The position numbers were made by a program. Positions 43,901 to 46,900 of a stretch of DNA of 64,000 nucleotides are shown in pieces. How positions within the stretch are numbered: position 1 is the first letter of the stretch; each line of letters begins with the position of its first letter. The stretch comes from Escherichia coli (lineage in GTDB: Bacteria; Pseudomonadota; Gammaproteobacteria; Enterobacterales; Enterobacteriaceae), in NCBI RefSeq assembly GCF_003019035.1, contig NZ_CP027447.1; one strand, 5' to 3'.

Positions 43901-46900
43901 ACGGGTAAAACTCATTAGAATTACCAGAATTCGGCCAATGCATTGCAAAAATGACATACAAAGAGAGATGTGCGCAGGCACTTAGCCGCGAGGGGCATGG
44001 CGAAGCCATACAGAAAGCACCAGCATTCAGAACTCCTGTGAAAGCGGCATAGTGGCCGCCTGTGCAGGAGTTTTGCTATGACCCGTATCGTGCTGACCGT
44101 TGCCACCCTATGATGCGATTAAAAAAACTCATCGTCGCGCCGATGATTGACGTCAATGCTATCGGATGATACCGGGGGTGTTCCGGAAGGAATTCCTTGT
44201 TTCCCGAACTGTTACCAACAAAATTATAACGATGAGCAAGTAAAGACCGGTTGGTGGCAGTACTGACCGGTCTGTGATGGATGATTAATTTCACCTTAAA
44301 TCCTGGTGCTGTTAGGATGCTGACATTTTTCGGGTACACCATTCAGATTATGCAAATGAAGACCCAATCAAAAAATAAATATCCCTGAATATAATATATT
44401 TATAGCACCCATATCTCATCCTGGGCGATAACTAAACCATTTTTGATTAACAAATGAAACAACTGCAACGTTCTTATTATTTCTGGAAAACGTCTCGCAA
44501 AAACAAAACAGCATGCAAAAATCCGCTTTTTTTAAATGATTTTTCGGCGTAATTTTCGCACATACATTAATGAGTCATATATGTAAGGTATTGGTAATGG
44601 CGATGAATACGGTTTTTCTTCATTTATCAGAAGAGGCAATTAAACGGCTGAACAAGCTTAGGGGCTGGCGTAAGGTTTCACGATCTGCAATTTTACGCGA
44701 AGCGGTAGAGCAATATCTGGAACGTCAGCAATTCCCGGTGCGTAAAGCAAAGGGAGGCAGGCAAAAGGGGGAGGTAGTTGGTGTTGATGATCAGTGTAAG
44801 GAGCATAAGGAATGACAAAAATTTTTCATTCTTGAATATAAAAAAACAGATGCCCTTATTCTGGTATTAATACAAGGCTGTTTTACTTGAACTTATAATA
44901 ACTGCAACTGTTACATCATATCTGGAAAACGCCTCGCAAAAATAAAAAATGATGCGTAAATGCGCTTTCTTTAAAGGTTTTGCAAGAGTATTTTGCTCAC
45001 CATGCATTCAAAAATGATATACTGGAGGTATATATGAGCGCTATGGCAGGTATGGATATGGGCAGAATTTTACTCGATTTATCCGATGAGGTGATTAAGC
45101 GACTTGATGATCTCAAAGTGCAGCGCAATCTTCCTCGCGCAGAGCTATTACGAGAAGCTGTAGATCAATATCTGGAAAATCAATCGAAAACGACAATATC
45201 CAGTGCTTTTGGTATCTGGCAAGGGTGTGAGGAAGATGGTGTCGAATATCAGCGTAAGCTGCGTGAGGAATGGTAATGGCAAAAAGAACTGCGCTTTTTG
45301 ATACCAATATCCTTATCGATTTGTTCAGCGGACGAATTGAGGCAAAACAGGCTCTGGAGGCATGGCCCCTACAGAATGCGATTAGTCTGGTCACATGGAT
45401 GGAGGTGCTGGTTGGCGCAAAAAAATATGATCAAGAACATCGCACACGGATTGCAATGAGTGCGTTTAACGTTATTGGGATTTCGCAGGATATCGCGGAA
45501 CGAAGCGTTGCTTTACGGCAGGAGTATAGAATGAAACTTCCAGATGCCATTATTCTGGCAACAGCACAGATTTATGGCTTTGAACTGGTAACGCGAAATA
45601 CGAGAGATTTTGCGGGAATAGCAGGTGTCGTCACACCCTATGAGCTGTAATCCGGGCGACCTGCGCCACCCGGAAAACGTCAGAGATTACTCCCCTTCAC
45701 CCGGGAACAGGAACGGGTTGATGGAACTGCGGGCGTAGCCTTCTTGCTCCATTCGCGCGTCCAGTACCAGAGAGGCGAGGTCATCTGCCACGGCTTCAAC
45801 TTTCGGTTCTTTTTCCTGATAAAGAATCTTCAGGTAAGTGCCGCAGTCATCGCAGCTTTCGGCTTTAATCGCGGCCTGTTCGTCATCCAGCGACCAGTAA
45901 TGCAGTTTGCCGCTCTGCTCGCAGTTGCTGCATTTTACGCGCACTACGTGCCATTCGGTTTCACACAGGTTGCAGTGCAGGTAACGCAGCCCCTGAGTGG
46001 TGCCAATTTGCACCATGCTGGACACCGGCATAGAGCCACATACCGGGCAATATTGACGTTGTTCGCCGTATTCAGCGCGGGCTTTGCCGGGGATCAGATT
46101 AGCCATCTGCGCCCAGTAGAGCGACAGCGCAGCCCAGATAAACGGCGCTTTATCGCTGCTGACGGACGAGAAATCAGAGGCAAACAGTGCGCTGGCCATA
46201 TCTTCCAGCTCCTGAGTCGATGCCTTCTCCAGATTCTCAATCACTGCCAGCGCCGGGCCGCTCATTTCAGGTTTCAGCTCAGCAATCAGCGCCATCAGCA
46301 GCTTTTGCCAGTGCTTATCACGCGGCAGAACGTGAATATCCAGCGGGGGCTTGCCTTGTGCGCTGGCTTCTTTAATGCGCGTGGTCAGATCCATCTCCAG
46401 CGGATGGTCGTACAGCACCACTTCCTGGGCGTGGGCGATAAGCGCAGCAAAGCGCAGGTAATCACCCAGCGGATTATTTTCTGCCAGCTCGCGCAGACGC
46501 TCGGCGCGGCGGTTGTATAAATTCTTGAGCCGAGGGAACAATAACGGCGGAATCATATCCGCCGTACATTTCTCGCTCGAACCCAGCTCATCTTGCGGGA
46601 TTATGCGAATACTCATTCAGCTTTCTTTTCCGTTGTCTTGCGGACCTCACGGTACCAGCGCGGGTGATGTTTCTTCGCCCAGGCGCTGGTAACCCATCCT
46701 TCCACCATGGCGGTAATCGTGCCTTTCACCCAAAGGGCGGCGTAGATATGCACCATGATAACCACAATTAACGCCACTGCGGCAAATGAATGCAGCATTA
46801 ACGCGAATCGGATCACCGGGATTGAGAAAGCAGGCGCAAAATAAGGACGCCAGATAATCACGCCGCTCACCAGCAGCAGAACCAGGAAAATAATCGCCGC

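What the first reader, a model, noticed from the sequence alone, without database searches (positions are those of the whole stretch)
44474..45650. Tandem RHH paralogues yiiE/yiiF with duplicated upstream blocks and a PIN-domain toxin gene overlapping the yiiF stop
Seen in sequence: yiiE (44597..44815) and yiiF (45034..45276) both encode ribbon-helix-helix proteins with a shared core (..AILREAVEQYLE.. versus ..[12 protein letters not shown]..), and each is preceded by a near-identical block (AACTGCAACG...TCTGGAAAACGTCTCGCAAAAACAAAACAGCATGCAAAAATCCGCTTT at about 44459..44535 versus AACTGCAACTG...TCTGGAAAACGCCTCGCAAAAATAAAAAATGATGCGTAAATGCGCTTT at about 44907..44970), indicating a duplicated gene-plus-promoter unit. 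The yiiF stop overlaps the ATG of a 124-aa PIN-domain ORF (TAATG at 45274..45278) whose N-terminus (LFDTNILIDL) is typical of VapC. Inference: yiiF-PIN is a VapBC-like toxin-antitoxin pair and yiiE may be an orphan or cross-regulating antitoxin paralogue.
Basis: partly seen in the sequence, partly recalled or inferred. Interest (0 to 1): 0.5.

Follow-up and report, generated by a model that had tools for sequence, protein, structure and literature searches.

The report
Intact VapBC toxin–antitoxin beside duplicated antitoxin
This E. coli strain still carries a working-looking copy of an old chromosomal toxin–antitoxin pair (yiiF plus a PIN-domain VapC gene) that about 99% of sequenced E. coli, including K-12, have lost, and the neighbouring gene yiiE is what remains of a second, tandemly duplicated copy; it is a known kind of system, with a clear evolutionary history.

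Summary
yiiE (44597-44815) and yiiF (45034-45276) are ribbon-helix-helix paralogues (44% identity). Each follows a related upstream block. The yiiF stop overlaps (TAATG) the start of a 124-aa PIN ORF (45276-45650).

The yiiF-PIN pair is a bona fide VapBC-type type II module. The toxin matches K. pneumoniae VapC at E=9e-63 and about 80% identity, and that protein's complex with its antitoxin is solved (PDB 7BY2). The four catalytic acidic residues are invariant. The pair sits at the same place (fabY...fdhE) across Enterobacteriaceae, under strong purifying selection.

Only 56 of 5426 complete E. coli genomes keep the full-length toxin gene. K-12 yiiF is an orphan antitoxin next to a vapC relic with an internal deletion and a REP-element insertion. 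Other lineages deleted yiiF and vapC together.

yiiE is found only in Escherichia. It arose by tandem duplication of promoter + vapB + most of vapC, and a vapC relic still follows its stop codon. YiiE has lost the toxin-binding tail and changed its DNA-reading residues, so it is probably a stand-alone DNA-binding protein rather than a second antitoxin. Natural yiiE::yiiF chimeras exist.

The system is a known kind and the interest is modest. The conserved upstream block remains unexplained.

The parts
44458..44561 (+). Upstream block of unit 1 (yiiE). Its conserved core TGGAAAACGTCTCGCAAA lies at 44484-44501.
   Evidence: Direct repeat family D1. The core pattern occurs twice in the window against 0.02 expected. 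The same core is conserved about 111 nt before vapB in all syntenic Enterobacteriaceae loci.
44597..44815 (+). yiiE: a 72-aa ribbon-helix-helix protein. It is the Escherichia-specific paralogue of the antitoxin and lacks the toxin-binding tail.
   Evidence: Pfam RHH_1 E=1.6e-11. It is 44% identical to YiiF. Homologues were found only in Escherichia and Shigella, and no second RHH gene is present in other genera. The RHH part has pN 0.01 against pS 0.23, and the tail has pN 0.156 against pS 0.27. The tail keeps 4 of 10 conserved VapB C-terminal positions.
44812..44893 (+). Relic of a second vapC gene (vapC'). Its ATG overlaps the yiiE stop codon (ATGA). It consists of a 5' stub joined to a stretch matching vapC codons ~82-104; the middle of the gene is deleted.
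   Evidence: Local alignment to vapC scores 19.5 against 9.2 +/- 1.4 for shuffles, with 0 of 1000 shuffles reaching it. Longer relics in THO-003 and E. fergusonii read MTKRVVLINSNVL against VapC MAKRTALFDTNIL. Their 3' part scores 26.5 against 8.1 +/- 1.4, again 0 of 1000.
44897..45000 (+). Upstream block of unit 2 (yiiF). Its conserved core TGGAAAACGCCTCGCAAA lies at 44923-44940.
45015..45033 (+). Candidate promoter and operator of yiiF-vapC. It comprises an extended -10 TGATATACT (45015-45023), a 6-bp inverted repeat ATATAC-N5-GTATAT (45017-45033) and GGAGG (45024-45028).
   Evidence: At least 80% conserved across 23 enterobacterial orthologous upstream regions. Function is inferred and was not tested. 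The generic sigma-70 scan found no plus-strand site.
45034..45276 (+). yiiF = vapB antitoxin (80 aa as annotated). It has an N-terminal RHH domain and a C-terminal VapC-binding segment, GVEYQRKL at residues 68-75.
   Evidence: PDB 2K5J (YiiF) E=1.6e-39 and 7BY2_A (K. pneumoniae VapB) E=1.1e-36. Pfam RHH_1. dN/dS against Citrobacter is 0.02. The K. pneumoniae VapB-derived peptide GMEAQRQL disrupts the complex (PMC12652419).
45276..45650 (+). vapC: a 124-aa PIN-domain toxin. The predicted catalytic residues are D9, E43, D90 and D111.
   Evidence: Pfam PIN E=4.9e-19. PDB 7BY2_B E=8.7e-63. The acidic residues are conserved in 80-81 of 81 homologues. dN/dS against orthologues is 0.04-0.08. RefSeq annotates it as a VapC family toxin. 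The full-length gene is present in 56 of 5426 E. coli genomes.

Best explanation
The locus holds an ancestral, vertically inherited enterobacterial type II toxin-antitoxin module, yiiF (vapB) plus vapC, and here it is still intact.

Mechanism, inferred from orthology to the solved K. pneumoniae VapBC and from general VapBC knowledge: VapC is a metal-dependent PIN-domain ribonuclease. Its active site (D9, E43, D90, D111) is blocked by the C-terminal helix of YiiF/VapB (GVEYQRKL...EEW). The two genes are translationally coupled through the TAATG overlap. The RHH domain of VapB dimerises and probably represses the operon at the conserved promoter-proximal inverted repeat. The RNA target is unknown.

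In the ancestor of Escherichia, a segment of about 0.7 kb (upstream block + promoter + vapB + about 100 codons of vapC) was duplicated in tandem. The upstream copy lost the middle of its vapC, leaving the relic at 44812-44893. Its antitoxin gene became yiiE. YiiE's RHH domain is under strong purifying selection but carries different DNA-reading residues (T.F.H instead of R.L.D). Its toxin-binding tail has decayed. YiiE is therefore most likely a stand-alone DNA-binding regulator with its own specificity, not a second antitoxin.

In most E. coli the downstream vapC was later destroyed, leaving yiiF as an orphan antitoxin. About 20% of genomes have a shared frameshift, an internal deletion of about 225 nt and a 15-nt deletion. 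At least 63%, including K-12, have the same lesions plus a REP/BIME insertion. In about 12% (UTI89 type), yiiF and vapC were deleted together.
For: Shown by tools:
- PIN and RHH domains are present.
- The proteins are about 80% identical to both chains of PDB 7BY2.
- The acidic residues are invariant in 81 RHH-PIN pairs.
- A single RHH-PIN pair lies between fabY and fdhE in Citrobacter, Klebsiella, Salmonella diarizonae, Enterobacter, Kluyvera and others, with no second RHH gene.
- dS is saturated and dN/dS is 0.02-0.08 against those orthologues, which indicates vertical descent and purifying selection.
- yiiE homologues occur only in Escherichia and Shigella.
- The two units align through the gene and into vapC.
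- The vapC' relic is significant in the window and clearer in the THO-003 and E. fergusonii alleles.
- The relic alleles were aligned base by base.
- Genome census of the alleles.
- Domain-specific selection on yiiE.
- Loss of the conserved tail and strand residues in YiiE.
- Natural chimeras with the YiiE N-terminus and the YiiF C-terminus sit in front of an intact vapC (L087) or a relic (L090-92). This shows that the modules recombine and that the yiiE promoter and RHH domain can serve an intact toxin.

From the literature: the VapB peptide GMEAQRQL restores K. pneumoniae VapC activity (PMC12652419).
Against: No experiment on the E. coli proteins is known to me, and none was found: no paper in the searchable library holds both 'yiiF' and 'antitoxin'.

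Toxicity, neutralisation, RNA target and autoregulation are all inferred by orthology. The promoter and operator assignment rests on conservation only, and the generic sigma-70 scan found no plus-strand promoter. The annotated yiiF start (45034) is not conserved in all genera, whereas ATG 45058 is.

Loss of vapC in about 99% of genomes by at least two routes argues that the module is dispensable or mildly costly in E. coli. The function of YiiE is unknown. Its altered specificity is inferred from three residue changes.

Orphan yiiF alleles keep their toxin-binding C-terminus, which the simple 'decaying remnant' picture does not explain.
Confidence: 0.8

Rival explanations
1. YiiE is a second, cross-acting antitoxin or co-repressor. 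It would neutralise VapC, form heterodimers with YiiF, or repress yiiF-vapC through the shared upstream block.
For: The two proteins share the RHH core (44% identity). The TGGAAAACG.CTCGCAAA block is kept in front of both genes. The YiiE RHH domain works with a YiiF tail in natural chimeras next to an intact vapC.
Against: The YiiE tail keeps only 4 of 10 conserved VapB C-terminal positions. It lacks both Trp, the Tyr and the Leu of the segment that corresponds to the K. pneumoniae disrupting peptide. The tail evolves almost neutrally (pN/pS about 0.55). All three conserved beta-strand positions differ. The promoter-proximal segment TATACTGGAG is missing upstream of yiiE. yiiE is retained unchanged in thousands of genomes that have no vapC.
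Confidence: 0.12
2. The intact-looking yiiF-vapC of this strain is an inert remnant on its way to loss, either non-toxic or not expressed, like the relics in other E. coli.
For: The gene has been lost in about 99% of complete genomes by at least two independent routes. The region is AT-rich and highly rearranged.
Against: The 124-codon ORF is uninterrupted and 99.7-100% identical in the PIN-positive genomes that were listed. All catalytic and conserved residues are present. dN/dS is 0.02-0.08 against orthologues. Its antitoxin allele is the outgroup-like one, whereas the orphan alleles have accumulated about 15 amino-acid changes.
Confidence: 0.12
3. The yiiF-vapC segment was recently re-acquired by horizontal transfer from another genus, a plasmid or a phage, rather than retained.
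For: Window YiiF is closer at protein level to Citrobacter YiiF (90%) than to K-12 YiiF (81%). The yiiF segment is 88% identical to K-12 at nucleotide level, while yiiE is 99.5% identical. That pattern points to two old haplotypes or to recombination within Escherichia.
Against: Nucleotide identity to Citrobacter, Klebsiella and Salmonella is only 74-81% with saturated dS. The position is identical in all genera. No phage matches were found. The only enterobacterial records in the plasmid collection are a 5.4-Mb K. pneumoniae record, which is evidently a chromosome, and a 425-kb Citrobacter record that was not examined further. The UTI89-type deletion allele carries the same intact vapC 3' end in 649 genomes, so the vapC-positive haplotype was once more widespread.
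Confidence: 0.08

Closest known systems
Klebsiella pneumoniae VapBC (PDB 7BY2/7BY3; Kang et al., J Med Chem 2020, cited in PMC11117207 and PMC12652419)
   Same: It is the orthologue at the same chromosomal position (fabY...fdhE; L009). The toxin is about 80% identical (E=9e-63) and the antitoxin E=1e-36. It has the same RHH antitoxin with a C-terminal ...DG(V/M)EYQR(K/Q)L...EW segment and the same acidic residues.
   Different: K. pneumoniae has a single module. This locus has an extra upstream paralogue (yiiE) and a vapC' relic. The E. coli proteins are untested.
E. coli K-12 / Shigella YiiF (PDB 2K5J, 'uncharacterized protein yiiF')
   Same: It is the same gene, an allele of window yiiF. The fold is ribbon-helix-helix and the last 21 residues are identical.
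   Different: The K-12 allele is an orphan: 81% protein identity, with its vapC reduced to a REP-interrupted relic. The window allele still has its toxin.
Enteric tRNA(fMet)-cleaving VapC (Shigella MvpT / Salmonella VapC-LT2; PDB 3TND, 6IFC family)
   Same: It has the PIN fold and the same acidic tetrad, and it is a type II module with an upstream antitoxin.
   Different: The relationship is only distant: E about 0.003, and NCBIfam scores of 20-29 bits against cut-offs of 140-143. The antitoxins of those systems are, from my own knowledge, AbrB/SpoVT-type rather than RHH. Their tRNA(fMet) target cannot be transferred to this protein.
FitAB of Neisseria gonorrhoeae (RHH antitoxin + PIN toxin; from my own knowledge, not tested here)
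   Same: The architecture matches: an RHH DNA-binding antitoxin whose C-terminus covers a PIN active site, with the complex binding an inverted repeat in its own promoter.
   Different: No detectable sequence match was found in the PDB searches. It is an analogy for mechanism only.

Membership tests
Type II toxin-antitoxin, VapBC type (PIN toxin + RHH antitoxin): yiiF-vapC | The toxin has a PIN domain. | tested here: met
   Pfam PF01850 E=4.9e-19, covering residues 7-116. NCBIfam VapC models hit, but below their cut-offs.
Type II toxin-antitoxin, VapBC type (PIN toxin + RHH antitoxin): yiiF-vapC | The conserved acidic active-site residues are present. | tested here: met
   D9 81/81, E43 81/81, D90 80/81 and D111 80/81 in an alignment of 81 homologues. 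They are identical in the alignment to 7BY2_B.
Type II toxin-antitoxin, VapBC type (PIN toxin + RHH antitoxin): yiiF-vapC | The antitoxin gene lies immediately upstream in the same orientation, with overlapping or adjacent stop and start codons. | tested here: met
   TAATG at 45274-45278. The same 1-nt overlap is found in 39 of 80 homologous pairs.
Type II toxin-antitoxin, VapBC type (PIN toxin + RHH antitoxin): yiiF-vapC | The antitoxin has an N-terminal DNA-binding domain and a C-terminal toxin-binding segment. | tested here: met
   Pfam RHH_1 E=7.6e-6, plus PDB 2K5J and 7BY2_A. The C-terminal consensus A.GLW.....DG..Y....R.EW is fully present and covers the K. pneumoniae interface peptide. 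Physical binding was not tested.
Type II toxin-antitoxin, VapBC type (PIN toxin + RHH antitoxin): yiiF-vapC | The toxin arrests growth and the antitoxin neutralises it. | not testable with these tools
   Inferred only from about 80% identity to K. pneumoniae VapBC, whose VapC catalytic activity is reported to be restored when the complex is disrupted.
Type II toxin-antitoxin, VapBC type (PIN toxin + RHH antitoxin): yiiF-vapC | The operon is autorepressed through an operator in its own promoter. | not testable with these tools
   There is only a candidate: the conserved inverted repeat ATATAC-N5-GTATAT, which overlaps the extended -10.
tRNA(fMet)-specific enteric VapC (NCBIfam NF010285 / NF047863) | The score reaches the curated family cut-off. 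| tested here: not met
   19.8 bits against a cut-off of 143, and 29 bits against 140. PDB matches have E of only about 0.003.
YiiE as a VapB-type antitoxin | It has a ribbon-helix-helix N-terminal domain. | tested here: met
   Pfam RHH_1 E=1.6e-11.
YiiE as a VapB-type antitoxin | An intact toxin gene lies immediately downstream. | tested here: not met
   Only an 82-nt relic is present. No genome examined has an intact PIN gene directly after a full-length yiiE.
YiiE as a VapB-type antitoxin | The conserved C-terminal toxin-binding motif is present. | tested here: not met
   It keeps 4 of 10 conserved positions. The L/I, W, D, Y, R and terminal W are lost, and the tail has pN/pS of about 0.55.
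Sigma-54 promoter (for the duplicated upstream block) | It matches the -24/-12 motif and is bound by sigma-54. | tested here: not met
   A position weight matrix built from 50 ChIP-seq sites scores the block 3.1-5.3 bits, against a minimum of 7.9 for real sites. No peak is listed at yiiE or yiiF in K-12.
REP/BIME element (insertion in the K-12 vapC relic) | It is a dispersed, palindromic repeat present in many copies per genome. | tested here: met
   The K-12 relic segment hits a median of 40 places per genome, which is the reporting limit. The palindromes GCCGGATGCGGCGTGAACGCCTTATCCGGCCTAC and AGGCCTGATAAGCGCAGCGCATCAGGC are visible.

The most novel reading that the evidence does not exclude
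After its toxin died, the duplicated antitoxin yiiE was not left to decay. It was recruited as a new, Escherichia-specific RHH transcription factor with changed DNA specificity. The orphan YiiF of K-12-like strains is likewise kept for a function of its own, since its VapC-binding C-terminus stays constrained. Both would act through, or alongside, the conserved TGGAAAGCG.CTCGCAAAA element, which is bound by a factor that has not yet been identified. This would be a documented case of toxin-antitoxin modules giving rise to ordinary regulators in the best-studied bacterium.
Probability: 0.3. Interest if true: 0.45.

Novelty: new member of a known kind. Interest (0 to 1): 0.3.

Why it matters
The analysis assigns an origin to two K-12 'y-genes' of unknown function. 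yiiF is the orphan antitoxin of a destroyed VapC, and yiiE is a duplicated antitoxin that has become a stand-alone RHH protein.

It also gives a clean natural series of toxin-antitoxin decay within one species. The series includes the intact module, a frameshifted and deleted toxin, a REP-invaded relic, joint deletion of both genes, and antitoxin chimeras.

The rare vapC-positive strains provide a ready-made system. They could be used to test whether this conserved enterobacterial VapBC has any physiological role, and what its RNA target is.

None of this changes how VapBC systems are thought to work.

Tried and rejected
1. Sigma-54 promoter for the conserved block. The block has GG-N10-GC spacing, but it was rejected by the position weight matrix score and by the absence of ChIP-seq or gSELEX sites.

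2. The sequence after yiiE as a duplicated copy of the ancestral hydrolase/LexA-box intergenic region, or of the far-upstream yiiE region. A MAFFT alignment suggested this. The local alignment scores are not significant (p about 0.03-0.6), whereas the match to vapC is significant at 0 of 1000 shuffles. The longer relics settle it.

3. Known RNA family in 44000-45800: none found.

4. Generic sigma-70 and terminator scan: no plus-strand promoter above background.

5. Plasmid or phage origin, and an 'anti-addiction' role of orphan YiiF against plasmid-borne relatives. There are no E. coli plasmid relatives and no phage matches.

6. Anti-phage defence annotation: no PADLOC hit for any of the three proteins.

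7. The yiiE::yiiF chimera junction in complete E. coli genomes: none found. The chimeras occur in other Escherichia assemblies.

8. The primary K. pneumoniae VapBC paper could not be read. Only citing papers were available.

9. No structure prediction was run. With about 80% identity to a solved complex it would add little.
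Full report
**Observation.** The stretch 44.4-45.7 kb of the window is the E. coli fabY(yiiD)-fdhE interval.
yiiE is at 44597-44815 (72 aa), yiiF at 45034-45276 (80 aa), and a 124-aa ORF at 45276-45650 whose ATG shares an A with the yiiF TAA (TAATG, 45274-45278).
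- YiiE and YiiF are 44% identical (E=7e-15). Both match Pfam RHH_1.
- The 124-aa ORF matches Pfam PIN (E=4.9e-19).
- The two upstream blocks are a real repeat: 44458-44561 and 44897-45000, 74% identical without gaps. Their 18-nt core occurs twice in 64 kb against 0.02 expected.
- A gapped alignment of the two units is continuous from the blocks, through the RHH genes, into the first codons of the PIN gene.

**Identity of the yiiF-PIN pair.**
- The PIN protein matches chain B of PDB 7BY2/7BY3, 'Ribonuclease VapC', at E=8.7e-63. Translated K. pneumoniae DNA is about 80% identical.
- YiiF matches chain A of the same entries (E=1.1e-36) and PDB 2K5J, 'uncharacterized protein yiiF' (E=1.6e-39).
- Papers that cite it attribute a K. 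pneumoniae VapBC structure to Kang et al. 2020. They report that a VapB-derived octapeptide, GMEAQRQL, disrupts the complex and restores VapC activity. I link that paper to 7BY2/7BY3 from my own knowledge. The primary paper could not be read.
- The parent sequence of that peptide, GMEYQRQL, corresponds to YiiF residues 68-75, GVEYQRKL.
- RefSeq already labels the identical DNA of strain SCU-301 as 'type II toxin-antitoxin system VapC family toxin'.
- In an alignment of 81 RHH-PIN pairs recovered from public genomes, D9, E43, D90 and D111 of the toxin are conserved in 80-81 sequences. The antitoxin consensus (R.L.D on the beta strand; A.GLW.....DG..Y....R.EW at the C-terminus) is fully present in YiiF.
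- The protein is only distantly related to the tRNA(fMet)-cleaving enteric VapCs (E about 0.003, and far below the NCBIfam cut-offs). The RNA target is therefore unknown.

**Ancestry.**
- A scan of one genome per species with the PIN protein returned loci from Citrobacter, Klebsiella, Salmonella diarizonae, Enterobacter, Kluyvera, Franconibacter and other Enterobacteriaceae. In these, a single YiiF-type RHH gene and the PIN gene lie between fabY and fdhE, as here.
- Against these orthologues, synonymous sites are saturated and dN/dS is 0.02-0.08. The module is therefore old, vertically inherited and under purifying selection.
- No phage carries a relative. The only enterobacterial records in the plasmid collection are a 5.4-Mb K. 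pneumoniae record, evidently a chromosome, and a 425-kb Citrobacter record that I did not examine.
- None of the non-Escherichia loci has a second RHH gene. The homologues of YiiE found in a 5.8-billion-protein search that carry a source name are all labelled Escherichia or Shigella. yiiE is therefore an Escherichia-specific duplicate.

**What the duplication contained.**
- The 82 nt that follow the yiiE stop (44812-44893) start with an ATG that overlaps the stop codon (ATGA). They align to vapC significantly: score 19.5 against 9.2 +/- 1.4 for 1000 shuffles, none of which reached it.
- The match covers a 5' stub (ATGACAAAAA...TTTTTCAT) and a stretch corresponding to vapC codons ~82-104.
- I first suspected that this stretch was instead a copy of the ancestral intergenic region with its LexA box, because MAFFT aligned it that way. 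Those alignments are not significant.
- Less decayed alleles settle the question. In E. coli THO-003 and in E. fergusonii, the sequence after yiiE reads MTKRVVLINSNVL... against VapC MAKRTALFDTNIL.... It continues with ...CCAGATGCCTTTATTCTGGCATCAATCAGATT against vapC ...CCAGATGCCATTATTCTGGCAACAGCACAGATT. The scores are 15.0 against 7.4 +/- 1.3 and 26.5 against 8.1 +/- 1.4, with 0 of 1000 shuffles reaching either.
- The tandem duplication therefore covered the upstream block, the promoter, vapB and about 100 codons of vapC. The upstream vapC copy then lost its middle.

**What YiiE is now.**
- Between E. coli and E. fergusonii-type alleles, the RHH part of yiiE (codons 1-44) has 0-1 nonsynonymous and 4-7 synonymous differences. 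The tail (codons 45-72) has about 10 nonsynonymous and 4.5 synonymous differences.
- The tail keeps only 4 of the 10 positions conserved in the VapB family. It has lost both tryptophans, the tyrosine and the leucine of the interface segment: GVDDQCKE instead of GVEYQRKL.
- The three conserved beta-strand positions, R.L.D, are T.F.H in YiiE. From general knowledge of RHH proteins, these are the outward-facing positions that read DNA.
- The promoter-proximal segment TATACTGGAG is absent upstream of yiiE.
- I infer that YiiE is a maintained DNA-binding protein with a new specificity and no antitoxin activity. This is an inference, not a demonstration.

**Loss of the toxin in most E. coli.**
- The full-length PIN gene is present in 56 of 5426 complete genomes.
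- Base-by-base comparison shows three relic types.
  1. An ST131-type relic has a 1-nt frameshift near codon 10, an internal deletion of about 225 nt and a 15-nt deletion near the 3' end. It occurs in 1080 genomes.
  2. The K-12 type has the same three lesions plus an insertion of palindromic REP/BIME repeats after codon 4. It occurs in at least 3434 genomes. The inserted segment hits a median of 40 places per genome, which is the reporting limit.
  3. A UTI89/14EC020-type deletion removes everything from the yiiF upstream block to vapC codon ~107. It keeps an undeleted vapC 3' end and occurs in 649 genomes.
- Types 1 and 2 share a common origin. Type 3 is an independent loss from a vapC-positive haplotype.
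- The orphan yiiF alleles of K-12, ST131, THO-003 and E. fergusonii cluster together (93-99% nucleotide identity). They are only 87-88% identical to the vapC-linked allele of the window, which is the outgroup-like one: 90% protein identity to Citrobacter, against 77% for K-12.
- K-12 YiiF, whose structure is PDB 2K5J, is thus an orphan antitoxin. No paper in the searchable library holds both 'yiiF' and 'antitoxin'.

**Natural chimeras.**
- In several assemblies, the N-terminal 35 residues of YiiE are fused in frame to the C-terminal half of YiiF, at the shared LREAV(E/D)QYL core. This is the product expected of unequal crossing-over between the tandem paralogues.
- In L087, whose protein NCBI labels E. 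albertii, the chimera is followed by an intact 124-aa PIN gene. In L090-L092 it is followed by the ST131-type relic.
- This shows that the antitoxin is modular and that the yiiE promoter and RHH domain can serve an intact toxin.
- No such junction exists in the complete E. coli genomes.

**Regulatory sequences.**
- A footprint of 23 orthologous upstream regions plus both E. coli units shows two conserved elements.
- The first is promoter-proximal: TGATATACT.GAGGTATATATG (45015-45036). It combines an extended -10, a GGAGG and a 6-bp inverted repeat. I take it as the candidate promoter and operator.
- The second is distal: the core TGGAAAGCG.CTCGCAAAA, about 111 nt before vapB.
- The block is present once in every syntenic enterobacterial locus. 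It is absent from more distant RHH-PIN loci. It is present up to three times in Escherichia.
- Its GG-N10-GC spacing suggested a sigma-54 promoter. However, a weight matrix from 50 ChIP-seq sites scores it 3.1-5.3 bits against at least 7.9 for real sites, and no sigma-54 site is reported there in K-12. The idea is rejected, and what binds the block is unknown.
- The annotated yiiF start (45034) lies only 10 nt after the -10 and is not conserved in all genera. ATG 45058 is conserved. The true N-terminus is therefore uncertain.

**Verdict.**
- The system is a member of a well-known class, and a close orthologue has a solved structure. It lies close to what is already known.
- Four points are, to my knowledge, not described in the literature I could search. 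They are the origin of yiiE from a duplicated vapBC, the relic of its toxin, the orphan status and decay series of yiiF-vapC in E. coli, and the natural chimeras. They are incremental.
- Two points remain open. One is the function of the conserved block. The other is why orphan yiiF keeps its toxin-binding C-terminus: codons 60-80 show 0-1 nonsynonymous against 2-3 synonymous changes, which are small numbers.

Noticed in passing
window 42048-43901 (+): A 617-aa ORF (604 aa from ATG 42087) lies between fabY and yiiE. It is AT-rich (35-39% GC) and contains a CX5R-like motif, CKSAKDRT. It has no hit in Pfam, NCBIfam, PDB sequences, PADLOC or PHROGs. RefSeq splits the identical SCU-301 DNA into a 'pseudo hypothetical protein' and a 'transposase'. 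K-12 keeps only a 117-bp relic. Other strains carry an alpha/beta hydrolase plus a small 103-aa/NadS pair at the same slot.
   Followed up: partly
L065 3571-3586, L009 3570-3585, L003 3576-3591, L087 ~1130-1145 (no equivalent in the window): In other Enterobacteriaceae, and in E. coli strains that keep the alpha/beta-hydrolase gene, a canonical LexA box (CTGTATGGATATACAG) lies about 15 nt upstream of the divergent hydrolase start and about 180 nt from vapB. This suggests SOS control of the hydrolase and possibly of the shared intergenic region.
   Followed up: partly
window 44484-44501 and 44923-44940; L084 1350-1368, L087 1203-1221: The block core TGGAAAGCG.CTCGCAAAA is conserved at a fixed distance before vapB in all syntenic Enterobacteriaceae. 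It has a third copy next to the LexA box in some Escherichia. It is neither a sigma-54 site nor a palindrome, and what binds it is unknown.
   Followed up: yes
window 45015-45060: The annotated yiiF start codon (45034) lies 10 nt after the conserved extended -10 and is ATA or ATT in three genera. ATG 45058 (M9) is conserved in all but one of the genera compared (GTG in L044) and lines up with Met3 of YiiE. The real antitoxin may be 72 aa, or the mRNA may be almost leaderless.
   Followed up: no
L085 735-2348; L088 3406-5019; L089 3406-3855: In THO-003 and E. fergusonii, 1-2 kb carrying minus-strand genes (a DUF6708 protein and a 246-aa or 149-aa ORF) is inserted between the vapC' relic and the yiiF unit.
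   Followed up: no
window 41700-45650: The whole fabY-fdhE interval is 35-46% GC, against 52-56% in the flanks. Its gene content differs between strains: IS1 insertion, the hydrolase/NadS set, the 617-aa ORF, or DUF6708 genes. It behaves as a small hotspot of gene gain and loss.
   Followed up: partly
K-12 yiiF (L002 6632-6874) versus window 45034-45276: Orphan yiiF alleles have many amino-acid changes in the N-terminus, RHH domain and linker. They have 0-1 changes in the last 21 codons, the VapC-binding part, against 2-3 synonymous changes there. This hints at continued constraint without the toxin, but the numbers are small.
   Followed up: partly
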